35,652 bases of DNA, from IMG/VR virus record IMGVR_UViG_2850773344_000006. One strand, given 5' to 3'. Made by a program: the position numbers and the translations under genes. The notes under the pieces were generated by a model. It saw nothing but the letters and a program-made list of their open reading frames with translations. It was not told the DNA's origin and did not search any database. Shown one piece after another: positions 10,506 to 27,246 of the stretch. Position 1 is the stretch's first letter; each line of letters opens with the position of its first letter. Source of the DNA: a virus. Lineage: Duplodnaviria > Heunggongvirae > Uroviricota > Caudoviricetes.

Positions 10506-11420
10506 ATGCACTCAATAAAAAAAGTAACCATGCTCTTGGGGTGCCTCGCCCTCACCTGCTCGATCGCATTTCAGGCAAGTGCAACTGAAAAATTCAAGGT
10601 CATTACAACATTTACCATCATCGCGGATATGGCCAAAAACGTGGCTGGAGATGCTGCAGAAGTCTCATCCATAACCAAGCCTGGTGCAGAAATTCATGAG
10701 TATCAGCCTACCCCTGGCGATATTAAACGTGCGCAGGGGGCACAACTGATTCTCGCCAATGGTATGAATCTGGAATTGTGGTTCCAACGCTTTTACCAGC
10801 ATCTCAATGGGGTTCCAGAAGTAATTGTCTCTTCGGGTGTGACGCCAGTAGGGATCACCGAAGGACCCTATGAGGGCAAACCTAATCCCCATGCATGGAT
10901 GTCGCCAGATAATGCTCTGATTTACGTCGATAATATTCGTGATGCGTTGATAAAATACGATCCGGCAAATGCACAAACCTACCAACGTAATGCCGATACT
11001 TATAAAGCCAAGATTACCCAAACCCTTGCCCCCCTGCGTAAGCAGATTACGGAACTCCCTGAGAATCAGCGATGGATGGTCACCAGTGAAGGGGCTTTTT
11101 CTTATCTCGCACGCGATTTGGGGCTAAAAGAGCTTTATCTGTGGCCGATTAATGCCGATCAACAAGGAACACCGCAGCAGGTACGTAAGGTTGTTGATAT
11201 AGTTAAGAAAAATCATATCCCGGCAGTCTTTAGCGAGAGTACGATTTCCGATAAACCAGCGCGTCAGGTTGCGCGTGAAACCGGCGCACACTACGGCGGT
11301 GTGCTCTATGTCGATTCCCTGAGCACAGAAAACGGCCCGGTACCTACGTATATCGACCTTCTTAAGGTTACTACCAGTACGCTGGTACAGGGAATTAAAG
11401 CCGGGAAAAGGGAGAAATAA
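10506..11420 (+). CDS. sitA: Periplasmic metal-binding protein of an Mn/Fe ABC transporter
   Basis: 304 aa with signal-peptide-like N-terminus; first gene of a four-gene operon with overlapping stops and starts. Confidence 0.85.
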
Positions 11421-12247
11421 TGATGCAATCTGCAGGCATTGTCGTTAATGATGTTACTGTCACCTGGCGTAACGGGCACACAGCACTGCGCGATGCATCC
11501 TTCACAGTACCAAGTGGATCTATTGCCGCTCTGGTTGGGGTAAACGGTTCCGGAAAATCGACGTTGTTTAAAGCGATTATGGGATTTGTGCGTCTGACCA
11601 GCGGAAAGATATCTGTTCTGGGTATTCCCACGCGACAGGCGCTACAGAAAAACCTGGTTGCCTACGTCCCTCAGTCAGAAGAGGTTGACTGGTCATTTCC
11701 TGTACTGGTGGAAGATGTGGTGATGATGGGCCGCTATGGGCATATGGGTATGTTGCGTATAGCCAAAAAGAGGGATCGTCAGATTGTCACCGATGCGCTG
11801 GAACGTGTCGATATGGTGGATTTTCGCCATCGTCAAATCGGCGAGCTTTCCGGTGGACAAAAGAAACGCGTCTTTCTGGCGAGAGCAATTGCACAGCAGG
11901 GTGATGTGATCCTGCTGGATGAACCTTTTACCGGCGTTGATGTGAAAACCGAAGCGAAAATCATCAGCCTGTTGAGGGAGTTACGCGCGGAAGGCAAAAC
12001 GATGCTTGTCTCAACGCACAATCTCGGCTCAGTCACGACATTTTGCGATTATACGGTCATGGTCAAAGGCACCGTCCTGGCAAGCGGGCCGACAGACACC
12101 ACTTTTACAGCCGAGAACCTGGAGCTGGCTTTTAGCGGCGTACTGCGCCATGTCACACTTAACGGCTCGGAAGAAAGCATTATTACTGACGATGAACGCC
12201 CTTTTGTGGCACATCGACCGTCAGCGGTGCAGAGGGAAGCAAGATGA
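11420..12247 (+). CDS. sitB: ABC transporter ATP-binding protein
   Basis: Walker [10 protein letters not shown], signature LSGGQKKR, Walker B ILLDEP; start overlaps the sitA stop (TAATG). Confidence 0.85.
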
Positions 12248-13101
12248 ACGTGCTACTGGAACCCTTCAGCTATGAATATATGCTCAATGCGATGTGGGTC
12301 TCGGCAATGGTCGGCGGTCTCTGCGCTTTCCTGTCATGCTATTTGATGCTAAAAGGCTGGTCGCTGATTGGCGATGCGCTGTCGCACTCTATTGTCCCGG
12401 GTGTTGCGGGGGCATATATGCTGGGGCTTCCGTTTTCTCTGGGAGCCTTCTTTTCCGGCGGACTGGCAGCGGGCAGCATGCTGTTTCTTAACCAACGCAC
12501 CCGCTTAAAAGAAGATGCCATCATCGGCCTGATCTTCTCGTCCTTTTTTGGCCTGGGGCTGTTTATGGTGTCATTGAACCCGACATCCGTGAACATTCAG
12601 ACCATCGTCCTAGGCAATATTCTGGCAATCGATCCGGCGGATATCCTGCAACTCACTATCATTGGCATTCTCTCGATCATCGTGCTTTTTTTCAAATGGA
12701 AAGATCTTATGGTGACCTTTTTCGACGAGAATCACGCCCGTGCTATTGGATTACATCCGGGCAGATTAAAAATCCTCTTCTTCACCCTGCTGTCGGTTTC
12801 GACCGTTGCGGCGCTGCAAACGGTTGGTGCCTTTCTGGTGATCTGTCTGGTGGTGACTCCCGGTGCAACAGCATGGTTGTTAACCGATCGTTTTCCCCGC
12901 CTGCTCATAATTGCTGTAACTATTGGCAGTGTAACCAGTTTCCTCGGCGCGTGGGTCAGTTACTTTCTGGACGGCGCGACAGGTGGAATCATCGTGGTGG
13001 CGCAGACACTGCTGTTTCTTTTAGCATTTGTATTTGCGCCCACCCATGGACTTTTGGCAAATCGTCGGCGTGCGCATAAAGCGCTGGAGGATCGCTCATG
13101 A
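12244..13101 (+). CDS. sitC: ABC transporter permease
   Basis: 285-aa hydrophobic multi-span protein; start overlaps sitB stop. Confidence 0.85.
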
Positions 13102-13955
13102 TGGCATTATTACTGGAGCCACTGCAGTTCACCTTTATGAGTCACGCACTGCTGATTTCACTGGTAGTTTCCATACCCTGTGCGCTGCTGTCGGTCTTTC
13201 TGGTCCTGAAAGGTTGGGCACTGATGGGTGACGCGATGAGTCATGCGGTTTTTCCTGGCATCGTGCTTACCTGGATTCTGGGGTTACCTCTGGCTACAGG
13301 GGCATTCGTCGCCGGAGTATTCTGCGCGGTGGCGACGGGATACCTGAAAGACAACAGCCGAATCAAGCAAGATACAGTTATGGGGATTGTTTTTTCTGGC
13401 ATGTTTGCCGCAGGTCTGATCTTGTATATTGCAATTAAACCAGACGTACATCTTGACCATATTCTTTTCGGCGACATGCTCGGGATAACCATCGGCGATA
13501 TAATCCAGACGGTGATTATTGCCGGGCTGGTTACACTTGTTATTAGCGTAAAATGGCGGGATTTTTTGCTGTTCAGCTTTGATTATCAACAGGCGCAGGT
13601 AAGCGGTTTGCATACGAGATGGCTGCATTATGGGCTGCTGTGCATGGTTTCCCTGACCATTGTGGCGACGCTGAAAGCAGTAGGTATCATTCTCTCTATT
13701 TCTCTGCTCATTGCGCCTGGCGCCATTGCAGTACTCCTGACACAACGCTTTCATATTGCGCTCCTACTGGCGACTGGCATATCGGTAATAGTGTCAATGA
13801 CTGGTGTCTGGCTGTCCTTTTTTATCGACAGCGCACCAGCTCCGACGATTGTCGTCTTATTCGCGGTCGTGTTCATCATGACGTTTACCGTTACCAGCAT
13901 CAACGCACGCACAAAGGGAAACGCCCATACACAGGATCTGTTATCACCCAATTAG
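13098..13955 (+). CDS. sitD: ABC transporter permease
   Basis: 285-aa hydrophobic paralogue of the preceding permease. Confidence 0.85.
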   Translation: MMALLLEPLQFTFMSHALLISLVVSIPCALLSVFLVLKGWALMGDAMSHAVFPGIVLTWILGLPLATGAFVAGVFCAVATGYLKDNSRIKQDTVMGIVFSGMFAAGLILYIAIKPDVHLDHILFGDMLGITIGDIIQTVIIAGLVTLVISVKWRDFLLFSFDYQQAQVSGLHTRWLHYGLLCMVSLTIVATLKAVGIILSISLLIAPGAIAVLLTQRFHIALLLATGISVIVSMTGVWLSFFIDSAPAPTIVVLFAVVFIMTFTVTSINARTKGNAHTQDLLSPN

Positions 13956-16937: not shown

Positions 16938-17884
16938 TGAGGTGTACTGGCAATAGCGGACACTACCATTTGTTCTTTTTTTAAGCAGCCATCTGATGAT
17001 ATTTTTCCCTGAAGGCTGCCGGGGATATTCCCCAGACGAGAGTGACGACGCTGACGATTGTAGAAAATCTCAATGTATTCCCGTATTACTGAGATGGCTT
17101 CATCCCGGTTATTAAAACGATAGTGGCTCAGGCTCTCATTTTTCAGCGTTCCCCAGAAGCTTTCCATCGGAGCGTTGTCGTAACAGTTACCTTTACGCGA
17201 CATTGATGTTTTCAGACCAGACTGCTCCTGTATGACCCGGTAATCGTATGCGCAGTACTGTGAACCTCGATCAGAGTGGTGGATTAGCCCGGCAGGTGGG
17301 CGCTGGCTCCTGAGCGCCATAAACAGGGCTTTACCTGTCAGCTCTTTTGTCATGCGCTCTCCCATGGCGTAGCCGACAATTTCGCACGTATAAACATCTT
17401 TGATGCCAGCGAGGTACAACCATCCCTCCTGTGTGGCAACATACGTCAGGTCCGCCACCCAGACCTGATTTGGTGCTGTAGGAGCGAACGTCTGGTTCAG
17501 CAGATTTGGCGCAACTGGCAGATTGTGGTTCGGGTTCGTAGTCGCTCTGAACTTGCGTTTCTGCTTACAGCGTAGCCTCAGCTCCTTACGAAGACGTGCC
17601 AGTCGGTCACGACCAACGATGATGCCATTCTCTGCCAGCTCCGTCTGGAGCCGCCGGGTTCCATATGTTTCGCGAGTGCGGATATGTGCCACCTTAATCT
17701 CCAGTTTTAGCCGCTCATCACTTTGTTTTCTGTCTGAGGGTTCATGCTGTACCCAGTTGTAATAACCGCTCCTGGATACACCAAATACCTGACACATCGC
17801 TTCAATGGGAAATTGTTGTCGCCATTGTTCGATTAACGCGTATTTTTCAGCGACTCCTGTGCAAAATACGCTGTTGCTTTTTTT
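16938..17884 (-). mobile_element. IS600, copy 2, truncated (orfA side replaced by IS1 B)
   Basis: End TGAGGTGTACTGG at 16938; identity to other copies stops at the T7 run at 17878-17884, where IS1 begins. Confidence 0.85.
16981..17797 (-). pseudogene. IS600 orfB, frameshifted (2-bp loss at the same site as copy 1)
   Basis: gccggggatattcccc versus gccggggagatattcccc in the intact copies; C-terminus becomes ...RLGNIPGSLQGKISSDG... Confidence 0.8.
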
Positions 17885-17899
17885 GGTAATGACTCCAAC

Positions 17900-18403
17900 T
17901 TACTGATAGTGTTTTATGTTCAGATAATGCCCGATGACCTTGTCATGCAGCTCCACCGATTTTGAGAACGACAGTGACTTCCGTCCCAGCCTTGCCAGAT
18001 GTTGTCTCAGATTCAGATTATGTCGCTCAATGCGCTGAGTGTAACGCTTGCTGATAACGTGCAGCTTTCCCTTCAGGCGTGATTCATACAGCGGACAGCC
18101 ATCCGTCATCCATACCACGACCTCAAAGGCCGACAGCAGGCTCAGAAGACGCTCCAGTGTGGCCAGAGTGCGTTCACCGAAGACGTGCGCCACAACCGTC
18201 CTCCGTATCCTGTCATACGCGTAAAACAGCCAGCGCTGACGTGATTTAGCACCGACGTAGCCCCAATGTTCGTCCATTTCAGCGCAGACAATCACATCAC
18301 TGCCCGGTTGTATGCGCGAGGTTACCGACTGCGGCCTGAGTTTTTTAAGTGACGTAAAACCGTGTTGAGGCCAACGCCCATAATGCGTGCACTGGCGCGA
18401 CAT
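17900..18403 (-). CDS. insB: IS1 InsB
   Basis: Identical 167-aa ORF. Confidence 0.9.
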
Positions 18404-18597
18404 CCGACGCCATTCATGGCCATATCAATGATTTTCTTGTGCGTACCGGGCTGAGAGGCGGTGTAAGTGAACTGTAGTTGCCATGTTTTACGGCAATGAG
18501 AGCAGAGATTGCGCTGATGTCCGGCAGTGCTTTTGCCGTTACGCACCACGCCTTCAGTAGCGGAGCAGGAAGGACATCTGATGGAAATGGAAGCCAC
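18322..18597 (-). CDS. insA: IS1 InsA
   Basis: 91 aa; one substitution (R to N at residue 29) relative to copies A and C. Confidence 0.9.
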
Positions 18598-18652
18598 GCA
18601 AGCACCTTAAAATCACCATCATACACTAAATCAGTAAGTTGGCAGCATTACC

Positions 18653-18808
18653 CGCGTTAAGTTCTTCGAGCATCTTACGAATATCACGAAGGACATTTCG
18701 GTGCTCGTTGCCTGTCAGCTCAGCAATTTCAACTGAGGTCATGGACACAAGCTGGTCGAGGTTAATGATGCTGATTTCTTGTTGTGGTTGTTGTGGTTGT
18801 TGAGACAT
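18653..18808 (-). pseudogene. 5' fragment of a Rha-family phage regulatory protein gene, truncated by IS1 B
   Basis: MSQQPQQPQQEISIINLDQLVSMTSVEIAELTGNEHRNVLRDIRKMLEELNA, then the IS1 end; N-terminal motif resembles the Rha/ORF6N family (from memory). AGGAAA ribosome-binding site 7 nt upstream. Confidence 0.55.
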
Positions 18809-18969
18809 CGCTTGATTTCCTTTTTGTTTGCACCCTGAAGTCGCCCCCCCACTGACCTACTCAAAGTCCCCAAGCGAAGGGAGACCAGCAGGACAACAGG
18901 ATGCAAACAGAATGACTTTGAGATTGAATACTATGATGATGACGATGTAGCTGTGCGGAGCTACTGGGA

Positions 18970-19190
18970 GGGTCTCTCTAGGAGCCACTCTAGGGTCTCT
19001 CTAGGCATCAGGCTATACGAAACTACAGGGCATCCTAAAGAATGACGTACAGGGCCATAGAGGACCATAGAGGGCCATAGAGTTAGCTTCTGGGGGTAAT
19101 GCCTAGAGGAGACCCTAGAGGAGACCCTAGAGAGACCTATAGAGAGACCATAGAGAAGACCTATAGAGAGACCCTAGAGAAGACCTATAG
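18970..19190. repeat. Arrays of short degenerate tandem repeats (units CC(C)TA(T)AGAG / GGTCTC)
   Basis: Seven consecutive 11-13 bp units (GAGACCCTAGAG, AGACCTATAGAG, AGACCATAGAG...) at 19104..19190; three CCATAGAG units at 19049..19081; two GGGTCTCTCTAGG at 18970..19004. Non-coding. Confidence 0.85.
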
Positions 19191-19239
19191 GTTTGGTGAT
19201 TGATTATTATAAATATCATCACCCCTTAAGGTATTCCCT

Positions 19240-19335
19240 TAGAGTTAATCTTTAATTGGTCTTTAATTAAATCTTTTATTTAATACTTAAAGTTAATCTC
19301 TAATTGTGTCTTTAAGTTAACTTTAAGTTAAGCCC
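19240..19335. other. AT-rich block with reiterated CTTTAA(G/T)TTA motifs
   Basis: tctttaattggtctttaattaaatcttttatttaatacttaaagttaatctctaattgtgtctttaagttaactttaagttaag; lies between the T7-type promoter and the tandem repeats. Confidence 0.7.
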
Positions 19336-19525
19336 CTGTAGGGACTAGAGACCATAATTAAGATGATTGTGTCTTATTGCTATTCACTTATCGACTGACC
19401 CAGAGCACACAGGAAGCATTCACTTTAAGTAGAACGCTTGGTGTCTGTAATTGGTCATCCCGCCCCTGAAAGGATGCGATAAGTTACGGTTAGTTGTCCT
19501 AGAAGAGAAAACTTTTTGTGTCCCT

Positions 19526-19548
19526 TCTCCCTATAGTGAGTCGTATTA
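19526..19548 (-). promoter_or_regulatory. Exact T7 RNA polymerase class III promoter consensus (TAATACGACTCACTATAGGGAGA), firing leftward
   Basis: Plus strand reads tctccctatagtgagtcgtatta, a 23/23 match to the T7 consensus; predicted +1 G at 19531; 88 bp downstream of the int stop. Confidence 0.75.
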
Positions 19549-19635
19549 ATTATCCTTGACAAGTAGAGAAAACTATGAGTCAAAAACATGACCACACAGG
19601 TCTGTAGTAAGTGTCATCCTAGACTATGGTCTCCT

Positions 19636-21240
19636 CTAGGTCTCCTTATAAACATCAGCCATCACATTGACCAGCCTATCAACCTCGACCTCTTTAGCAT
19701 AACGGTCGTAAGTAATAGACCCTGAACTATGCCCCATGATCGCCTGTGCATACGCCAACTCGACCCCATGTTGTTTTAACTGGGTCGCAACTGTATGTCT
19801 AAACGAGTGAAACGCTAAGCCGCTACGGTCTACGAGGACTTTAGGCAACAACGTCCGATTAAACCATTTACTCACCTGCTCACCGTAACCGTTCTTCATG
19901 AGACGCAGACCATCGAACACCATAGCGTCATCACCGTCAGCGCCTCTACGGGTCTCTACAAGCGCCATAAAGTCAGCCAATATAAAACCATAGGCCCCAT
20001 CGACCAGAGGCACACAGCGGTCACTATGAGCGTTCTTGATGCTCTTACCGGGTAGACTACTATCGTCTTCATTGATATGAATATAAACGGTTCCCGCCTC
20101 AGTGGTCCTGACGTCTTTGACCTGTAGTTGGGCTATTTCATTGAGTCTCGCCCCAGTGATAGCAGCCAAGGCGGTAACATAATAATGATACGGCTTACCA
20201 GAGGTCTTCTGAGAGTATGCCTTAGCTGCGACCAGTAGTTGCCCCACCTGCTCCGTAGAGAAGGCGTTACGGGCCCCTGAGGCTTTACGCTGAGGGACTT
20301 TAAGCTCCAGACCCTCAGTCATGTTCTTTTTAATCAAGTCATTGCGCACAACCCACCTAAAGACAGCAGCCATCTTAATAAGATACTTGTTGTTGATGGT
20401 AACGACATCCAGACAATCTGTCTTATCTTCACGGCTCAACAGGTCAGCAAGTGGGACATCCTTGAAGCGCTGCTTACGGTTCCTAGGTAACTGCTGGAGC
20501 ACATCACGGACCCTAAGCATGTCAGCCCTGTTAGCGTCTGCATTGAGACCCAGATGGTCGAATATTTCGATTAACGCAGCGTGTGACGCCTTGTTTTCCC
20601 TTAAGGTTGCAGGCTTCCAGTTCTGATAGTTCTCCGCTTCGTATTGCTCAAAGAGGCTCGCTATGGTAATGCTAGGCGTAACTTCTGGTTTTACTTCTGG
20701 AGCATTAACAGATAGGGACACAGAGTCTGCTTGGTTATCTTGCCTATCAATATCATTAAAAAGATCGACGTAATCTATCAGAGGCTGACTGTCTCCCGCT
20801 TCGATACGCCTCATACAGGCTTTTAGCACCTTCAGGGCCTCATTGATGTAACGATGCTGGTCAATGCTTAGCGGCTCACTAGCCAGAGCATCGGTAAGGC
20901 TCTCACCAAGTTCTCCGTATTGGTCCCGGTAGATATCCCTCATGTCAGGCTCAAAGAGATCTGAACGGCCCATAGACAGTTCACACTCAGCGATGTCCTT
21001 AAGGTGTTCCCTCATTTCCTCATAGGTAGCGTTGGGTCTGTCTGCGTGTATTGCCTTGAGTGCTGCCTTTATGTGCCTTGAGTAAGCCATAGCGGTGCGT
21101 CTATCCTTGGTCCGTAATGATATTGAGGTCATTCTATCATTGTTTGATTGTCTGACCCTAAGACGGAAGTAGTAGACGCCGTTACGCTGGTAGAGATAGT
21201 AGACTGCTGGAAGTTTGTGACTACTGGATAGCTGAATCAT
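19636..21240 (-). CDS. int: Tyrosine recombinase / integrase (534 aa)
   Basis: C-terminal catalytic region with ...GARLNEIAQL..., HSFRHTVATQL and ...GHSSGSITYDRYAKE (R, HxxR, Y signature); long N-terminal domain. Confidence 0.8.
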   Translation of the reverse strand: MIQLSSSHKLPAVYYLYQRNGVYYFRLRVRQSNNDRMTSISLRTKDRRTAMAYSRHIKAALKAIHADRPNATYEEMREHLKDIAECELSMGRSDLFEPDMRDIYRDQYGELGESLTDALASEPLSIDQHRYINEALKVLKACMRRIEAGDSQPLIDYVDLFNDIDRQDNQADSVSLSVNAPEVKPEVTPSITIASLFEQYEAENYQNWKPATLRENKASHAALIEIFDHLGLNADANRADMLRVRDVLQQLPRNRKQRFKDVPLADLLSREDKTDCLDVVTINNKYLIKMAAVFRWVVRNDLIKKNMTEGLELKVPQRKASGARNAFSTEQVGQLLVAAKAYSQKTSGKPYHYYVTALAAITGARLNEIAQLQVKDVRTTEAGTVYIHINEDDSSLPGKSIKNAHSDRCVPLVDGAYGFILADFMALVETRRGADGDDAMVFDGLRLMKNGYGEQVSKWFNRTLLPKVLVDRSGLAFHSFRHTVATQLKQHGVELAYAQAIMGHSSGSITYDRYAKEVEVDRLVNVMADVYKET

Positions 21241-21354
21241 ATGTCTGTATGCCCTGAGAGGGTTACACAGTGGGTTACAGTAAGTAACTCTGCAAGGAGG
21301 CTTAAAGCCGTATCCCTTAGGATTCAGTAGGTTGGAGTACTTTAAGAAAGGTCA

Positions 21355-21429
<75 letters not shown>

Positions 21430-21432
21430 ATA

Positions 21433-21508
<76 letters not shown>

Positions 21509-21510
21509 GC

Positions 21511-21587
21511 TGGCCCACCACCGAGGACTCGAACCTCGCACCGTCAACTTAGAAGGTTGATGCTCTATCCGGATGAGCTAGTGGTGG
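21511..21587 (-). tRNA. tRNA-Arg (anticodon UCU), with an atypical C1:G72 acceptor pair
   Basis: Reverse complement CCACCACTAGCTCATCCGGATAGAGCATCAACCTTCTAAGTTGACGGTGCGAGGTTCGAGTCCTCGGTGGTGGGCCA; all four stems pair. Confidence 0.65.
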
Positions 21588-21588
21588 T

Positions 21589-21665
21589 TGGTGGCCCTTG
21601 CTGGACTTGAACCAGCGACCTGGCGATTATGAGTCGCTCGCTCTGACCAACTGAGCTAAAGGGCC
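21589..21665 (-). tRNA. tRNA with CAU anticodon, probably Ile2 (lysidine type) rather than elongator Met
   Basis: Reverse complement GGCCCTTTAGCTCAGTTGGTCAGAGCGAGCGACTCATAATCGCCAGGTCGCTGGTTCAAGTCCAGCAAGGGCCACCA; resembles the remembered E. coli ileX more than metT. Confidence 0.65.
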
Positions 21666-21752
21666 GGAGGCAGAATAATAACCATATGTCATCACATCTG
21701 CAAACTCATCTGACCACCAGCGCGTTTAACGCCCTGTGCCATTTTTCAGGCA

Positions 21753-21780
21753 CAAAAAAACCCGCATAAAGCGGGTTCTT
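21753..21780. terminator. Bidirectional intrinsic terminator (ACCCGC-ataaa-GCGGGT flanked by A-run and T-run)
   Basis: acaaaaaaacccgcataaagcgggttcttt; follows the antirepressor gene on the minus strand. Confidence 0.65.
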
Positions 21781-22426
21781 TCAAGTGTCCATGTCTGCTA
21801 TTCGCCTCGCGATACAGCTTTGCGAAGCTTACCGGAATTGAAGCAGTTTATGTGCAAAAATGCAAGAACTTTTTTAAAGCTGCATCAACCTTTCCACCAG
21901 TTTATCTCTGCGAACAACAAACCAACCATTGGCTCTCGCCAGTTCCAGCCATGACTCAAGGGAAATAACAATATCATCATCCCGTAACTGAATTGTGGAA
22001 ACAGTGACACCGCCTCTCTGATAACAGAGAACTCGCGTGTCGTAACTTTTCTGGCATGAAACTGGCGTTGACGGATCCCTTTGACTGAAATAGCAGTCTT
22101 CCAGTTTTTCGAACACATCCCACGCCTGATCGGTTTCGAGCATTTTGCCGTGGCGTGCTGCGCCTCGTTCTGTCCAGAGGATGAGGGAGCGGGCTTTGGG
22201 TGAAACTGGATTTTGTGAGTAGTTTAAAGCGACCCGCAATTCTTTAAGGTCATTACCAACAACTTTGAAAAAGTGTTTCCCTTCAACGAAGCGTACTTTG
22301 TTCTCATGATGATTCTGGCGAATACGCACCGGCTCAGTGCCGTAAAGCTGCGCCAAAAGTTCGGTGGTAATAACAGGAATCTGTGAGGTGTACTGGCAAT
22401 AGCGGACACTACCATTTGTTCTTTTT

Positions 22427-23245
22427 TTAAGCAGCCATCTGATGATATTTTTCCCTGAAGGCTGCCGGGGAGATATTCCCCAGACGAGAGTGACGACGCT
22501 GACGATTGTAGAAAATCTCAATGTATTCCCGTATTACTGAGATGGCTTCATCCCGGTTATTAAAACGATAGTGGCTCAGGCTCTCATTTTTCAGCGTTCC
22601 CCAGAAGCTTTCCATCGGAGCGTTGTCGTAACAGTTACCTTTACGCGACATTGATGTTTTCAGACCAGACTGCTCCTGTATGACCCGGTAATCGTATGCG
22701 CAGTACTGTGAACCTCGATCAGAGTGGTGGATTAGCCCGGCAGGTGGGCGCTGGCTCCTGAGCGCCATAAACAGGGCTTTACCTGTCAGCTCTTTTGTCA
22801 TGCGCTCTCCCATGGCGTAACCGACAATTTCGCACGTATAAACATCTTTGATGCCAGCGAGGTACAACCATCCCTCCTGTGTGGCAACATACGTCAGGTC
22901 CGCCACCCAGACCTGATTTGGTGCTGTAGGAGCGAACGTCTGGTTCAGCAGATTTGGCGCAACTGGCAGATTGTGGTTCGGGTTCGTAGTCGCTCTGAAC
23001 TTGCGTTTCTGCTTACAGCGTAGCCTCAGCTCCTTACGAAGACGTGCCAGTCGGTCACGACCAACGATGATGCCATTCTCTGCCAGCTCCGTCTGGAGCC
23101 GCCGGGTTCCATATGTTTCGCGAGTGCGGATATGTGCCACCTTAATCTCCGGTTTTAGCCGCTCATCACTTTGTTTTCTGTCTGAGGGTTCATGCTGTAC
23201 CCAGTTGTAATAACCGCTCCTGGATACACCAAATACCTGACACAT
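22427..23245 (-). CDS. IS600 orfB transposase (DDE), intact
   Basis: 272 aa ending ...RLGNISPAAFREKYHQMAA. Confidence 0.9.
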   Translation of the reverse strand: MCQVFGVSRSGYYNWVQHEPSDRKQSDERLKPEIKVAHIRTRETYGTRRLQTELAENGIIVGRDRLARLRKELRLRCKQKRKFRATTNPNHNLPVAPNLLNQTFAPTAPNQVWVADLTYVATQEGWLYLAGIKDVYTCEIVGYAMGERMTKELTGKALFMALRSQRPPAGLIHHSDRGSQYCAYDYRVIQEQSGLKTSMSRKGNCYDNAPMESFWGTLKNESLSHYRFNNRDEAISVIREYIEIFYNRQRRHSRLGNISPAAFREKYHQMAA

Positions 23246-23280
23246 CGCTTCAATGGGAAATTGTTGTCGCCATTGTTCGA

Positions 23281-23583
23281 TTAACGCGTATTTTTCAGCG
23301 ACTCCTGTGCAAAATACGCTGTTGCTTTTTTTAATATATCTCGCTCAAGGCGAGCTTCATTTAACGCCTTACGCAGTTGCAGAATTTCAGATTCCAGTTC
23401 AGCCACCGTGCGGGAACCAGGAGTACCGAGCCCTTTTCTGGCGGCGGTAACCCATTGTCCTAAAGTGCCTTCAGGAAGAGATAATCGGGAAGCGCCTTCA
23501 CTGATCGAAAGTTGATTTTCAAGAACCGTTCTGACAGCTTCGGCTTTGAACTCTTTAGAGTAACGTTGGGTTTTTCTGCTCAT
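23281..23583 (-). CDS. IS600 orfA
   Basis: 100-aa HTH protein. Confidence 0.9.
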   Translation of the reverse strand: MSRKTQRYSKEFKAEAVRTVLENQLSISEGASRLSLPEGTLGQWVTAARKGLGTPGSRTVAELESEILQLRKALNEARLERDILKKATAYFAQESLKNTR

Positions 23584-23860
23584 TATTAGCTCCTTCTGAT
23601 GCCATTCTATTTCAGGAAGGAGTGTCCGTTAAACTCAGGCTACCTCACTGGTTATGGGTGATCGGGGAGAGAGTTTCAACAGAGATTTGAGTGGTCATAA
23701 CGATAACTCCGTACATTTGGAAATTATCGCCACCGACGACGCCAATCGAACTGGTGGCGAACTGTGCAGGGTTGGCGTAACCGGGTACGGAAACCGGCGA
23801 GCCTTTCGGCTCCCCCACACAGCCCGCCATAAATCGCGAATGTGACTGTGCAAACGATAT

Positions 23861-23881
23861 GAAAAAAGACGCGGGCGCGTC
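23861..23881 (-). terminator. Intrinsic terminator about 100 bp downstream of the Q-like gene (tR'-like position)
   Basis: GACGCG-gg-CGCGTC stem followed by a T6 run on the minus strand (plus strand gaaaaaagacgcgggcgcgtc). Confidence 0.6.
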
Positions 23882-23970
23882 TCATATCGCTCCGTAAACA
23901 TCCGGGACGCCAATCCCGACGCCAGATTTTGCTGGCGCGTGAGGAATATAGCCCCGGATAACAGATTGAG

Positions 23971-24525
23971 TCAACAAACGGTTTTTAGATCCCCGGAAGA
24001 GAATGCATCACGCATCGGTAGATAGAGCATATATTCAGCAAGATTTAGCCATACATCTACCCGACTGCAGCACGTCCGGAAACACCACTCAGGGTGTGCG
24101 TCATTCAGCAATTCAGCCATTTTACGCTTAGTCATCCCCCGCCCTTCATACCGTTGCCGGAGGACACTAATCAATCCAGGATGCTCTGCCAGCACCTCAC
24201 TTATGACTCTATCAATACATAACGCCTCTGCATCAGTACAATGCGCCAGCCAGGTCTTTTGCTTGCCATTGATCATCTCTCGCAAAAACGCTTCCAGCTC
24301 AGGTTTCTCTATTCCCGCTTTTTTCATCCTGCGCAGGGCTTCATTGACGGCTGTTTTCGTCAATTTTTTGGATGCCAGCAACTGGTTAAACATATTTCCC
24401 GTCTTACCGCCGCCAATATACGACCAGCGCCCCCACATGCGCAGTTTTCCCTGAATCCAGACACTTTCCAGCGTGGTGAGACGAAGGTGTTCCCCGCTTT
24501 TGCCTGTATTTGTTGGGTAAATCAT
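23971..24525 (-). CDS. Putative late-gene antiterminator (Q-like), 184 aa from the ATG overlapping the upstream stop
   Basis: Position after nin-like genes and before a terminator fits lambdoid Q; ATG at 24525 overlaps the ybcO-like stop (ATGA). Family call by synteny and weak memory only. Confidence 0.45.
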   Translation of the reverse strand: MIYPTNTGKSGEHLRLTTLESVWIQGKLRMWGRWSYIGGGKTGNMFNQLLASKKLTKTAVNEALRRMKKAGIEKPELEAFLREMINGKQKTWLAHCTDAEALCIDRVISEVLAEHPGLISVLRQRYEGRGMTKRKMAELLNDAHPEWCFRTCCSRVDVWLNLAEYMLYLPMRDAFSSGDLKTVC

Positions 24526-25411: not shown

Positions 25412-25544
25412 CGTAGTTCTCCGCTGGCGCAGTAGAATGGGTGTTCAGCCCGTTATGTAGTATACCAGAATTAATGCCAATACTAACAGGGTAATGCTGC
25501 CAACTTACTGATTTAGTGTATGATGGTGATTTTAAGGTGCTTGC

Positions 25545-25820
25545 GTGGCTTCCATTTCCATCAGATGTCCTTCCTGCTCCGCTACTGAAGGCGTGGTGCG
25601 TAACGGCAAAAGCACTGCCGGACATCAGCGCTATCTCTGCTCTCATTGCCGTAAAACATGGCAACTACAGTTCACTTACACCGCCTCTCAGCCCGGTACG
25701 CACCAGAAAATCATTGATATGGCCATGAATGGCGTCGGATGTCGCGCCAGTGCACGCATTATGGGCGTTGGCCTCAACACGGTTTTACGTCACTTAAAAA
25801 ACTCAGGCCGCAGTCGGTAA
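25545..25820 (+). CDS. insA: IS1 InsA
   Basis: 91-aa ORF. Confidence 0.9.
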
Positions 25821-26242
25821 CCTCGCGCATACAACCGGGCAGTGATGTGATTGTCTGCGCTGAAATGGACGAACATTGGGGCTACGTCGGTGCTAAATCA
25901 CGTCAGCGCTGGCTGTTTTACGCGTATGACAGGATACGGAGGACGGTTGTGGCGCACGTCTTCGGTGAACGCACTCTGGCCACACTGGAGCGTCTTCTGA
26001 GCCTGCTGTCGGCCTTTGAGGTCGTGGTATGGATGACGGATGGCTGTCCGCTGTATGAATCACGCCTGAAGGGAAAGCTGCACGTTATCAGCAAGCGTTA
26101 CACTCAGCGCATTGAGCGACATAATCTGAATCTGAGACAACATCTGGCAAGGCTGGGACGGAAGTCACTGTCGTTCTCAAAATCGGTGGAGCTGCATGAC
26201 AAGGTCATCGGGCATTATCTGAACATAAAACACTATCAGTAA
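25739..26242 (+). CDS. insB: IS1 InsB
   Basis: 167-aa ORF. Confidence 0.9.
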
Positions 26243-26259
26243 GTTGGAGTCATTACCTA

Positions 26260-26747: not shown

Positions 26748-26903
26748 TTACTCCTCAGGTTCGTAAGCTGTGAAGACAGCGACCTCCGTCTGGCCGGTTC
26801 GGATTCGTACCTCGCAGAGGTCTTTCCTCGTTACCAGTGCCGTCACTATGACGGTTAAACAGATGACGATCAGGGCGATTAACATCGCCTTTTGCTGCTT
26901 CAT
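26748..26903 (-). CDS. hokD: Hok/Gef-family small membrane toxin (51 aa)
   Basis: MKQQKAMLIALIVICLTVIVTALVTRKDLCEVRIRTGQTEVAVFTAYEPEE; the track ORF is extended upstream in frame. Confidence 0.85.
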   Translation of the reverse strand: MKQQKAMLIALIVICLTVIVTALVTRKDLCEVRIRTGQTEVAVFTAYEPEE

Positions 26904-27246
26904 AGCCTGCTTCTCCTTGCCTTTCGGCACGTAAGAGGCTAACCTACATTTGTGAGACATAGATTGGGCCTCAGATTAATGTTAAGCGTCTTGCAGGACG
27001 CGTAATGTTAACTGGGGCTTTTCTCTGTCTGCCTTACAGTGGCATGCCCGAGGCAGACAGCCTCAAGCACCCGCAGCAATCTTACCGATACCGATAAGAA
27101 AACGCTATTTTTTATTGCCAGCACCTTCTATCCAGGCTAATTTATCTGCGTCAGAACGGCGCAATGCGCTCGCCTGAGATACGTTTACTTGCCATGGTAA
27201 CAACAGGTAACGGCAATTGCTGTTTCTGTTTTGTTTCCTTCAAAAA

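What the first reader, a model, noticed from the sequence alone, without database searches (positions are those of the whole stretch)
21874..23830. Antirepressor gene is the first gene after the Q-like gene and terminator, and is split by IS600 (CTG duplication)
The interrupted Ant/KilAC-like gene reassembles in frame across the insertion. It occupies the position where lambdoid phages normally start their lysis and structural genes; none of those is present between here and the tail-fibre module, indicating large deletions of the late region.
Basis: partly seen in the sequence, partly recalled or inferred. Interest (0 to 1): 0.4.

Follow-up and report, generated by a model that had tools for sequence, protein, structure and literature searches.

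The report
IS600-split anrP-type antirepressor pseudogene
A Shigella flexneri prophage remnant carries a known RNA-controlled antirepressor module (isrK/C4 RNAs plus an AnrP-like gene) whose protein gene was cut in two by an IS600 insertion, so this is an ordinary pseudogene in a decaying prophage.

Summary
IS600 (1264 bp, window 22384..23647, minus orientation) sits between two CTG copies. Removing it and one CTG restores an open frame, and an E. coli relative has the same gene intact with a single CTG.

The real gene is 185 aa and starts at ATG 23698. It has an ORF6N domain and no KilAC domain. It is 54% identical to Salmonella Gifsy-1 AnrP, which has been studied experimentally, and 92% identical to another Salmonella copy.

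The first 132 nt of the stated interval is that RNA and its upstream ORF (uORF), not antirepressor coding sequence. The locus is therefore the known antQ-isrK-orf45-anrP module, which resembles phage P1 immI.

The gene is native at this position. Intact relatives read Q, isrK/C4, anrP, (tRNAs), holin. The late-region loss is real, about 20 kb. It begins exactly at the 3' end of the phage tRNA-Gly, where a glyU-type island integrase is joined, and ends at an IS1 without target duplication next to a truncated IS600.

Verdict: an ordinary, already-known kind of module, here inactivated.

The parts
23971..24525 (-). Q-like antiterminator gene (184 aa, DUF1133). It occupies the antQ position of the module.
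   Evidence: Pfam DUF1133 at 5.1e-108 with a weak Phage_antitermQ hit, and PHROG 753 'Q-like' at 2.5e-80. It is 72% identical to the protein at the same position in a Salmonella isrK locus.
23945..23974 (-). Promoter-like site TTGACT-18-TATATT, corresponding to PisrK.
   Evidence: It matches 10 of 12 consensus positions. It is conserved in the alignment with Salmonella and E. coli loci. This is a consensus match only.
23862..23938 (-). isrK sRNA. Its loops carry a1 (CAAAAUC, 23931..23925) and b1 (UUGGCG, 23913..23908), and its Rho-independent terminator is 23883..23866. It overlaps the c4-a1b1 motif at 23899..23951.
Evidence: Rfam RF01394 scores 75.6 bits against a gathering score of 50, over model positions 1-77 of 77. 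RF03163 scores 52.2 bits against 46.7.
23750..23834 (-). C4-type antisense RNA, with a' (GGUUUCC, 23795..23789) and b' (CGCCAA, 23777..23772). It overlaps an orf45-like uORF that starts at ATG 23830 and here runs in frame into anrP.
   Evidence: Rfam RF01695 scores 77.6 bits against a gathering score of 45, full length. The fold z-score is -4.6. b1, b' and b2 covary between loci (PMC4825925 S7 Fig).
23699..23749 (-). Leader with the b2 target (UUGGCG, 23745..23740) and the GGAG Shine-Dalgarno sequence (23710..23707) of anrP.
23648..23698 (-). 5' fragment of the anrP-like ORF6N gene, codons 1-17 (MTTQISVETLSPITHNQ). Codon 17 (CAG) is one copy of the duplication.
22384..23647 (-). IS600 (IS3 family), 1264 bp, with orfA at 23583..23281 and orfB at 22427..23245.
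   Evidence: It is 99.6-99.8% identical to three other copies in the window.
22381..22383 (.). CTG target-site duplication. The second copy is at 23648..23650.
21874..22380 (-). 3' fragment of the anrP-like gene, codons 18-185 plus the stop. It holds most of the ORF6N domain and the C-terminal domain.
21754..21782 (-). Terminator-like hairpin AACCCGC-UUUAU-GCGGGUU followed by U7, after the anrP stop. It marks the end of the roughly 910-nt module transcript.
   Evidence: Read from the sequence. It appears in the fold of 21745-21875, z-score -3.5. The terminator scanner did not list it. No Rfam IsrJ hit was found.
21355..21665 (-). Phage tRNA array: Ile2/Met(CAT), Arg(TCT), Thr(TGT), Gly(TCC).
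18653..21354 (-). Remnant of a glyU-type integrative island joined to the last base of the phage tRNA-Gly. It contains a 534-aa tyrosine integrase (21240..19636) and a Rha-gene fragment (18808..18653).
16938..18652 (.). IS600 truncated at nt 949 (16938..17884), abutted by IS1 (17885..18652) that has no 9-bp target duplication. This is the scar of the late-region deletion.

Best explanation
The interval is the Shigella flexneri copy of the antQ-isrK-orf45-anrP module. This module is known from Salmonella prophage Gifsy-1 and is built like the c4-icd-ant immI operon of phage P1. Here its protein gene is inactivated by IS600.

How the intact module works. These steps were shown in Salmonella and are inferred here by homology:
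1. A promoter at the end of the Q-like gene makes mostly a 77-nt terminated sRNA, IsrK, which carries the a1 and b1 loops.
2. Read-through transcripts carry a C4-type RNA whose b' segment pairs with b1. This locks the leader in a form that is not translated.
3. Excess free IsrK opens the leader. A short uORF is then translated, and by translational coupling so is AnrP.
4. AnrP is a 185-aa protein with an ORF6N DNA-binding-type domain and a small C-terminal domain. It derepresses the prophage early operon that contains the Q-like gene and so triggers induction.

What the sequence shows directly in this window:
- IS600 inserted after codon 17, duplicating CTG.
- The leader RNAs are intact.
- Translation of anrP stops at the TGA formed by the first bases of the IS, so AnrP is null.
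- The gene is native to this position and does not replace the late genes.

The late genes, about 20 kb, were lost separately (inferred from the junctions). A glyU-type island had integrated site-specifically at the 3' end of the prophage's own tRNA-Gly. An IS1-associated deletion then removed the rest of the island and everything up to a truncated IS600 beside the tail-fibre genes.
For: IS anatomy, duplication and in-frame restoration.

Protein identity:
- The protein is 54% identical to SL1344 AnrP. The first 27 residues and the LILWTERGAARHAKMLETDQAW.VFEKLEDCYF core are shared.
- It is 92% identical to a Salmonella protein in a locus that also has isrK and C4.

RNA elements:
- isrK, c4-a1b1 and C4 are all above Rfam gathering scores and full length.
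- The b1, b' and b2 segments change together between loci. The window and FDAARGOS_944 have UUGGCG/CGCCAA/UUGGCG; L014 and EPSSH018 have UUGGAA/UUCCAA/UUGGAA. Two further types appear in S7 Fig of PMC4825925.
- The pairs G28-C162 and G31-C159, for which compensatory mutants were tested, fall on b1 and b' when the numbering is transferred.
- The distance from the transcription start to the second terminator, minus the IS, is 914 nt. The reported transcript is about 910 nt.

Synteny in intact relatives.

AnrP function in Salmonella.

Deletion anatomy:
- Homology to the intact prophage stops exactly at 21355.
- The tRNA is phage-type through CCA, and glyU-island sequence follows.
- The same integrase family sits at chromosomal glyU in other E. 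coli.
- An independent island bounded by att sites sits in a phage tRNA-Gly in EPSSH018.
- The IS1 has no target duplication and adjoins a truncated IS600 and a truncated Rha gene.
Against: - No experiment exists for this protein or for any Shigella copy. Identity to the characterised AnrP is only 54%, and the C-terminal halves are weakly alike.
- The Salmonella paper shows derepression and induction but not repressor binding, so 'antirepressor' is itself an inference.
- No IsrJ-family hit was found downstream.
- The uORF here is fused in frame to anrP and is not a separate 45-codon ORF.
- The window has no attR for the island, so its integration is inferred from the junction and from another genome.
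Confidence: 0.8

Rival explanations
1. The protein is a DNA-binding transcription regulator of the Bro/KilA-N network. It acts directly on promoter DNA, for example by activating the early operon, and does not bind a repressor. 'Antirepressor' would then be an annotation habit.
For: - The only Pfam domain is ORF6N, with no KilAC/ANT, AntA or P22_AR domains.
- The N-terminal domain is joined to many different C-terminal partners across 2,162 cluster representatives.
Against: - The module architecture equals P1 immI, whose product is a true antirepressor. This rests on my own knowledge of P1 c4-icd-ant and was not tested here.
- PHROG families sharing the N-terminal domain are annotated Ant.
- AnrP expression induces Gifsy-1, which is the phenotype expected of an antirepressor.
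- Foldseek against the PDB gave nothing significant.
Confidence: 0.25
2. The split gene is still functional. The 215-aa ORF that starts at a TTG inside the IS600 end (21874..22521) is annotated in S. flexneri and would yield an active N-terminally altered protein, perhaps driven by an outward IS600 promoter.
For: - The ORF exists and is annotated on 105 contigs as 'putative bacteriophage protein'.
- It retains residues 18-185, including the invariant core motif.
Against: - It lacks the first 17 residues, which are conserved (L10 and I13 are nearly invariant).
- It replaces them with 47 IS-derived residues read in another frame of orfB.
- It has a TTG start with no evident Shine-Dalgarno sequence, and it is cut off from the isrK/C4 control region.
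- The window copy has A95G at a position that is invariant in all 18 aligned homologues.
Confidence: 0.05
3. The tRNA-Gly/integrase junction arose by homologous recombination or a chromosomal rearrangement between the chromosomal glyU island and the prophage tRNA-Gly. The late genes would then have been moved elsewhere and not deleted.
For: - Shigella chromosomes are heavily rearranged.
- The integrase and its flank are 94-95% identical to a glyU-linked island.
- No attR is present in the window.
Against: - The two tRNAs share only 13 nt and 10 nt of identity near the 3' end, and the switch lies within or after the last 10 nt. That is too short for RecA-dependent exchange.
- EPSSH018 shows a complete attL/attR-bounded island of the same integrase family in the same phage tRNA.
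- The distal side of the gap is an IS1 without target duplication between two truncated elements, which is the signature of an IS-mediated deletion.
Confidence: 0.1

Closest known systems
Salmonella Gifsy-1 antQ-isrK-orf45-anrP-isrJ locus (Hershko-Shalev et al. 2016, PMC4825925)
   Same: - The gene order is the same: Q-like gene, promoter, 77-nt terminated IsrK, structured leader with a uORF, then a protein of about 185 aa with an ORF6N domain.
- IsrK is found above the Rfam threshold, and the b1/b' sequence type matches that of SL1344.
- The transcript length, about 910 nt, matches.
- The proteins are homologous (54% identity).
- The lysis genes lie downstream in intact relatives.
   Different: - anrP is split here by IS600.
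- The uORF is fused in frame to anrP. The paper noted the same for S. dysenteriae.
- There is no IsrJ-family hit.
- A four-tRNA array follows the module.
- The Q-like protein was compared only with a different Salmonella locus (72% identity), not with SL2579 itself.
- The C-terminal halves of the proteins are diverged.
Phage P1/P7 immI operon (c4 antisense RNA - icd - ant1/2)
   Same: The C4 RNA family and its upstream a1/b1 targets are detected by Rfam (clan CL00128). A b2 copy lies between C4 and the ribosome-binding site of the downstream gene. The specificity loops covary between variants, as they do between P1 and P7.
   Different: No icd homologue was identified. The downstream protein has ORF6N plus a small C-terminal domain and is not a P1 Ant-type protein. 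The module sits after a Q-like gene in a lambdoid prophage. The comparison with P1 biology rests on my own knowledge, not on a test here.
ORF6N+KilAC 'Ant' genes of Stx-converting phages
   Same: They share the isrK/C4-like leader (282 phage records, 162 of them covering at least 80% of the leader). They also share the N-terminal ORF6N domain.
   Different: In Stx phages the module lies in the nin region upstream of Q, and the protein carries a KilAC C-terminal domain. Here the module is downstream of Q and has no KilAC domain.
Helper-embedded PICIs and tRNA-targeting islands (PMC10111431). This applies to the side finding only.
   Same: An integrase-bearing island sits inside a prophage, just upstream of its late genes. 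An integrase is followed by a Bro-network (Rha) gene. The tRNA 3' end serves as the att site, with a displaced fragment at attR in EPSSH018.
   Different: The target is a phage-borne tRNA gene and not a late protein gene. The integrase is of the glyU-island type (534-538 aa). The EPSSH018 island has no primase or capsid-redirecting genes; its cargo is the defence gene PD-T7-4.

Membership tests
IS600 (IS3 family) insertion | An element of about 1.26 kb with TG...CA imperfect terminal inverted repeats and two overlapping transposase ORFs (HTH_Tnp_1, then rve). | tested here: met
   The element is 1264 bp, and its inverted repeats, orfA and orfB are. Records at 99% or more identity are annotated as IS600.
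IS600 (IS3 family) insertion | A 3-bp target-site duplication that is present once in the empty site. | tested here: met
   CTG flanks both ends. The empty site in FDAARGOS_944 has a single CTG.
ORF6N / Bro-network DNA-binding proteins | A Pfam ORF6N domain above the gathering score. | tested here: met
   It scores 69.6 bits against a cutoff of 27.8.
Ant/KilAC antirepressors (Pfam ANT PF03374, AntA, P22_AR) | Presence of a KilAC/ANT, AntA or P22_AR domain. | tested here: not met
   Only ORF6N was found at E<=0.01. NCBIfam gave nothing. The C-terminal 65 aa match only PHROG 2379, PHROG 22471 and PHROG 340.
isrK-orf45-anrP module (Gifsy-1) | An IsrK sRNA with a Rho-independent terminator, immediately downstream of a Q-like gene. 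| tested here: met
   RF01394 scores 75.6 bits over its full length. The terminator is and the DUF1133 gene.
isrK-orf45-anrP module (Gifsy-1) | A leader segment complementary to IsrK (G28-C162 and G31-C159 in SL1344), with a uORF start. | tested here: met
   b1 UUGGCG is complementary to b' CGCCAA, and the ATG at 23830 aligns with the first orf45 AUG. The segments covary across loci.
isrK-orf45-anrP module (Gifsy-1) | A downstream protein homologous to AnrP. | tested here: met
   It is 54% identical at E 4e-63 over the full length.
isrK-orf45-anrP module (Gifsy-1) | An IsrJ sRNA after anrP. | tested here: not met
   RF01393 gave no hit even at E<=1. Only a terminator hairpin and a sub-threshold isrK-like hit were found.
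isrK-orf45-anrP module (Gifsy-1) | AnrP derepresses the antQ operon and induces the prophage. | not testable with these tools
   This was shown only for SL1344. The gene here is disrupted.
P1-type immI (c4-icd-ant) | A C4 antisense RNA with a1/b1 targets upstream and a2/b2 targets downstream at the ribosome-binding site. | tested here: inconclusive
   C4 and a1b1 are met and b2 was found. A convincing a2 match next to the Shine-Dalgarno sequence was not established.
P1-type immI (c4-icd-ant) | An icd gene between c4 and ant. | tested here: not met
   Only the 44-codon uORF lies there. Its weak Phage_ASH hit (E 1.3e-3, below the cutoff) overlaps the RNA gene.
Lambdoid late-operon leader (pR'-tR') | A Q-binding element and a promoter-proximal pause that allow Q to load at the promoter downstream of Q. 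| not testable with these tools
   Only a sigma-70-like promoter and a terminator are seen. Whether PisrK also serves as the late promoter is an inference.
tRNA-targeting integrative island (side finding) | A tyrosine integrase next to a tRNA 3' end, with an att repeat at the far end. | tested here: inconclusive
   In the window the integrase and junction are present but attR is absent. In EPSSH018 both att sites are present.

The most novel reading that the evidence does not exclude
The most novel reading not excluded is that loss of the late region began when a glyU-targeting island used the prophage's own tRNA-Gly as a secondary attachment site. Such islands would then form a recurrent class of prophage-embedded elements, sitting between the Q/anrP control region and the lysis cassette. 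There they could be transcribed or mobilised with the late operon and could deliver cargo such as the defence gene PD-T7-4 in EPSSH018.

A second, weaker possibility concerns the IS600 insertion. It leaves PisrK, IsrK and C4 intact, and it may have been selected because it disarms the toxic AnrP-to-AntQ cascade while keeping RNAs that can still cross-talk with anrP modules of the same b-loop type in other prophages.
Probability: 0.3. Interest if true: 0.5.

Novelty: already known. Interest (0 to 1): 0.22.

Why it matters
The finding matters little by itself. It is one more IS-inactivated gene in a degraded Shigella prophage, the one that carries sitABCD.

Recognising the isrK/C4 RNAs does correct the annotation. 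The 44-codon extension and the 215-aa 'bacteriophage protein' are artefacts. The 'terminator after Q' belongs to an sRNA. The gene belongs to a studied induction switch whose product is toxic through AntQ in Salmonella. Its inactivation fits the picture of a virulence-linked prophage remnant being locked in place.

The side observation may be of modest interest to people who study prophage-embedded elements. A glyU-type integrase uses a phage-borne tRNA-Gly, once with a defence-gene cargo.

Tried and rejected
- Phage_ASH reading of the upstream extension. The 44 codons upstream gave Pfam E 1.3e-3, PHROG 3960 at 1e-10 and PHROG 4908. I rejected a protein domain because the stretch is a full-length C4 RNA. 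Those protein families probably contain translated RNA genes or uORFs.
- NCBIfam and PDB sequence searches of the protein found no hits.
- RNA duplex energies for IsrK with C4 and for C4 with the leader were no better than shuffled controls. I did not use them and relied on covariation.
- A search for an att repeat of the tRNA-Gly 3' end elsewhere in the window found none.
- Rfam IsrJ was not found in the window, nor in the Salmonella locus L014, which has isrI instead.
- I first assumed that the Salmonella protein P0022 (92% identity) was SL1344 AnrP. Primer and alignment data in the paper's supplements show that SL1344 AnrP is a more distant family member at 54% identity.
- My first IS boundaries were off by one base and broke the frame. 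They were corrected.
- The terminator scanner missed the hairpin after anrP, probably because the stem can extend into the U-tract.
Full report
**1. The observation**

On the minus strand, a 184-aa Q-like gene (DUF1133, 5e-108; weak Phage_antitermQ hit) occupies 23971..24525. An intrinsic terminator follows at 23883..23866.

IS600 occupies 22384..23647. It is 1264 bp, has TG...CA inverted repeats, and carries orfA and orfB on the minus strand. CTG is present on both sides, at 22381-83 and 23648-50. My first boundaries were one base off and broke the frame.

Deleting the IS and one CTG gives a single open frame from 23830 to the stop at 21874. In E. coli FDAARGOS_944 the same locus is uninterrupted. 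The two window flanks overlap there by exactly 3 bp, and the site reads caggaatCTGgttatgg.

The interrupted sequence is identical in a complete assembly, CP037923.1, which I recall to be S. flexneri 5a M90T. The IS-fused 215-aa ORF is annotated on 105 S. flexneri contigs. No complete E. coli genome among 5,426 has the insertion.

**2. What the gene is**

PHROG 2379 ('anti-repressor') matches at 2.6e-92, over its full length but only from Met45 of the long ORF. Pfam gives ORF6N at 2.9e-19 and nothing else above threshold. There is no KilAC/ANT domain. NCBI annotates the intact gene as a 185-aa 'ORF6N domain-containing protein'. A GGAG lies 8 nt before ATG 23698.

The N-terminal 120 residues are shared with 2,162 cluster representatives that carry many different C-terminal partners. 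Only a minority share the whole architecture.

**3.

An Rfam scan of the window found three full-length hits on the minus strand between the Q-like gene and ATG 23698:

| Family | Accession | Window coordinates | Bits | Gathering score |
|---|---|---|---|---|
| c4-a1b1 | RF03163 | 23951..23899 | 52.2 | 46.7 |
| isrK | RF01394 | 23938..23862 | 75.6 | 50 |
| C4 antisense RNA | RF01695 | 23834..23750 | 77.6 | 45 |

- The first 132 nt of the stated interval is the C4 RNA with an overlapping uORF.
- The weak Phage_ASH and PHROG 3960 hits to that stretch are therefore not evidence of a protein domain.

**4. Match to the published system**

In Salmonella Gifsy-1 the order is antQ (Q-like), isrK, orf45, anrP (predicted anti-repressor), isrJ. 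PisrK makes the 77-nt IsrK and also a read-through mRNA of about 910 nt that is not translated. IsrK acting in trans opens the leader, orf45 is translated, and anrP follows by translational coupling. AnrP raises antQ-operon mRNA and induces Gifsy-1, and AntQ is toxic. A processed RNA of about 80 nt arises from the orf45 region (PMC4825925).

- In the window, the distance from the IsrK start to the hairpin after anrP, minus the IS, is 914 nt.
- The alignment with a Salmonella locus and two E. coli loci shows a conserved promoter, IsrK, C4 and leader.
- The b1 loop, the b' segment of C4 and a downstream b2 copy change together. They read UUGGCG/CGCCAA/UUGGCG in the window and in FDAARGOS_944, and UUGGAA/UUCCAA/UUGGAA in L014 and EPSSH018.
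- S7 Fig of the paper shows the window type in SL1344 and two further types.
- The pairs G28-C162 and G31-C159, for which compensatory mutants were tested, map to b1 and b'.
- SL1344 AnrP, taken from S8 Fig, is 54% identical to the reconstructed protein (E 4e-63). The first 27 residues are identical and the core motif is shared.
- A second Salmonella protein, P0022, is 92% identical. It lies in a locus with isrK, C4, a DUF1133 gene and the lysis genes.
- The paper already listed E. coli and S. dysenteriae homologues, and it noted an orf45-anrP fusion in S. dysenteriae. The uORF is fused in the same way here.

**5. Position**

- In FDAARGOS_944 the order is DUF1367, DUF1364, DUF1133, ORF6N gene, four tRNAs, holin, lysozyme, Rz, terminase through tail, then sitABCD.
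- EPSSH018 and Salmonella have the same module ahead of the lysis genes.
- The gene is therefore native to this slot and does not stand in for the late genes.
- In Stx phages the same leader precedes ORF6N+KilAC Ant genes in the nin region.

**6. The missing late region**

The window is collinear with the FDAARGOS_944 prophage from 34431 down to 21355, apart from IS elements. Homology stops at the last base of tRNA-Gly.

Between that point and the tail-fibre genes lie only the following:
- a 534-aa tyrosine integrase (21240..19636);
- a 5' fragment of a Rha gene;
- IS1 (17885..18652), whose 9-bp flanks differ (GCTTTTTTT versus CGCGTTAAG);
- an IS600 copy cut at nt 949 (16938..17884).

About 22.7 kb of the intact relative corresponds to 5.8 kb here.

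In other E. coli the integrase and its flank lie at chromosomal glyU, next to actS. In the window the tRNA is phage-type through ...CCCGCTGCCCGCTCCA, and island sequence follows directly.

In EPSSH018 a related prophage carries a 6.3-kb island at the same tRNA. Its attL is a hybrid tRNA with a glyU-type 3' end. Its attR is the displaced phage-type 3' fragment, followed by native phage sequence and the holin. The cargo includes PD-T7-4.

I infer site-specific integration into the phage tRNA, followed in Shigella by an IS-mediated deletion. The two attL patterns, GCT versus TTC, could both arise if the crossover overlap spans that triplet. This point is unproven.

**7. Consequence and verdict**

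In the window the promoter, IsrK and C4 are intact. Translation of anrP ends after 17 codons at the TGA formed by the IS end. The copy also has A95G at a position invariant in 18 homologues. The gene is a pseudogene within a known, experimentally studied module, located in a prophage remnant that has lost its late genes. Interest is low. The island in the phage tRNA is the only mildly unusual feature.

Noticed in passing
window 18653-21429: A 534-aa tyrosine integrase that sits at chromosomal glyU in other E. coli is joined here to the last base of the prophage's own tRNA-Gly(TCC). The tRNA stays fully phage-type. The island is cut off by IS1 after a Rha-gene fragment.
   Followed up: yes
L004 (E. 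coli EPSSH018, NZ_CP125889.1) 1735-8166: This is an independent 6.3-kb island in a phage tRNA-Gly, between the Q/ORF6N module and the holin. It has a hybrid attL and a displaced tRNA 3' fragment at attR. Its cargo is an integrase, the PD-T7-4 defence gene (3.4e-97) and five hypothetical genes. It is the only such case among 5,426 complete E. coli genomes.
   Followed up: partly
window 16938-18652: IS1 (17885-18652) has no 9-bp target duplication. It lies between an IS600 truncated at nt 949 and a truncated Rha gene. This is probably the scar of the deletion of about 20 kb that removed the late genes.
   Followed up: partly
L005 (CP000266.1) 5230-6000 and L007 (CM001474.1): These S. flexneri assemblies lack the whole isrK-C4-anrP-IS600 segment. 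A diverged 3' end of the Q-like gene runs straight into the sequence that follows the anrP stop in the window. This is either a recombinant prophage variant or an assembly difference. The newer assembly CP037923.1 matches the window.
   Followed up: partly
window 22090-22092 (codon 95 of the reconstructed gene): RHAKML is RHGKML here (A95G), at a column invariant in 18 aligned homologues. Some other S. flexneri copies keep the A. This is consistent with decay after inactivation.
   Followed up: no
window 23740-23913, and loci L001, L004, L014: The b1, b' and b2 segments of the isrK/C4 module occur in at least four mutually exclusive sequence types across E. coli, Shigella and Salmonella. This suggests RNA-level specificity classes like those of P1 and P7.
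   Followed up: partly
window 23699-23830: The orf45-like uORF has no stop codon and is in frame with anrP, so translation from it would give a 229-aa protein. Gene callers sometimes annotate 229- or 237-aa versions (P0064, P0112).
   Followed up: partly
proteins P0009, P0016 (homologues): The ORF6N family has length variants of 185, 193 and 203 aa. They are caused by a short repeated insert (NLRVTLSNSQ / NLQPSLRGLQ) in a loop of the N-terminal domain.
   Followed up: no
window 2630-2812 and 2941-4596: The Rfam CssrB sRNA (151.6 bits) lies just upstream of a 551-aa ORF. Matching E. coli records annotate ipaH3 across this region. sitABCD lies at about 10506-13955, beside the tail-fibre genes.
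   Followed up: no
window 26898-27072: A sok antitoxin RNA hit (118 bits) lies next to a Hok-type ORF in the prophage early region. An IS1 at 25489-26257 lies immediately downstream of this cassette.
   Followed up: no
phage record PP818812.1 (hits H3, H126): A record named Actinobacillus phage vB_Apl-pPE4 carries this enterobacterial Q-isrK-C4-ORF6N region at 93% identity. That host assignment is unexpected.
   Followed up: no
phage records, e.g. KU977419.1 and U82619.2 (SfV 'immunity region'): The isrK/C4-like leader occurs in 282 phage records, mostly Stx-converting phages. There it sits in the nin region upstream of Q, ahead of ORF6N+KilAC Ant genes.
   Followed up: no
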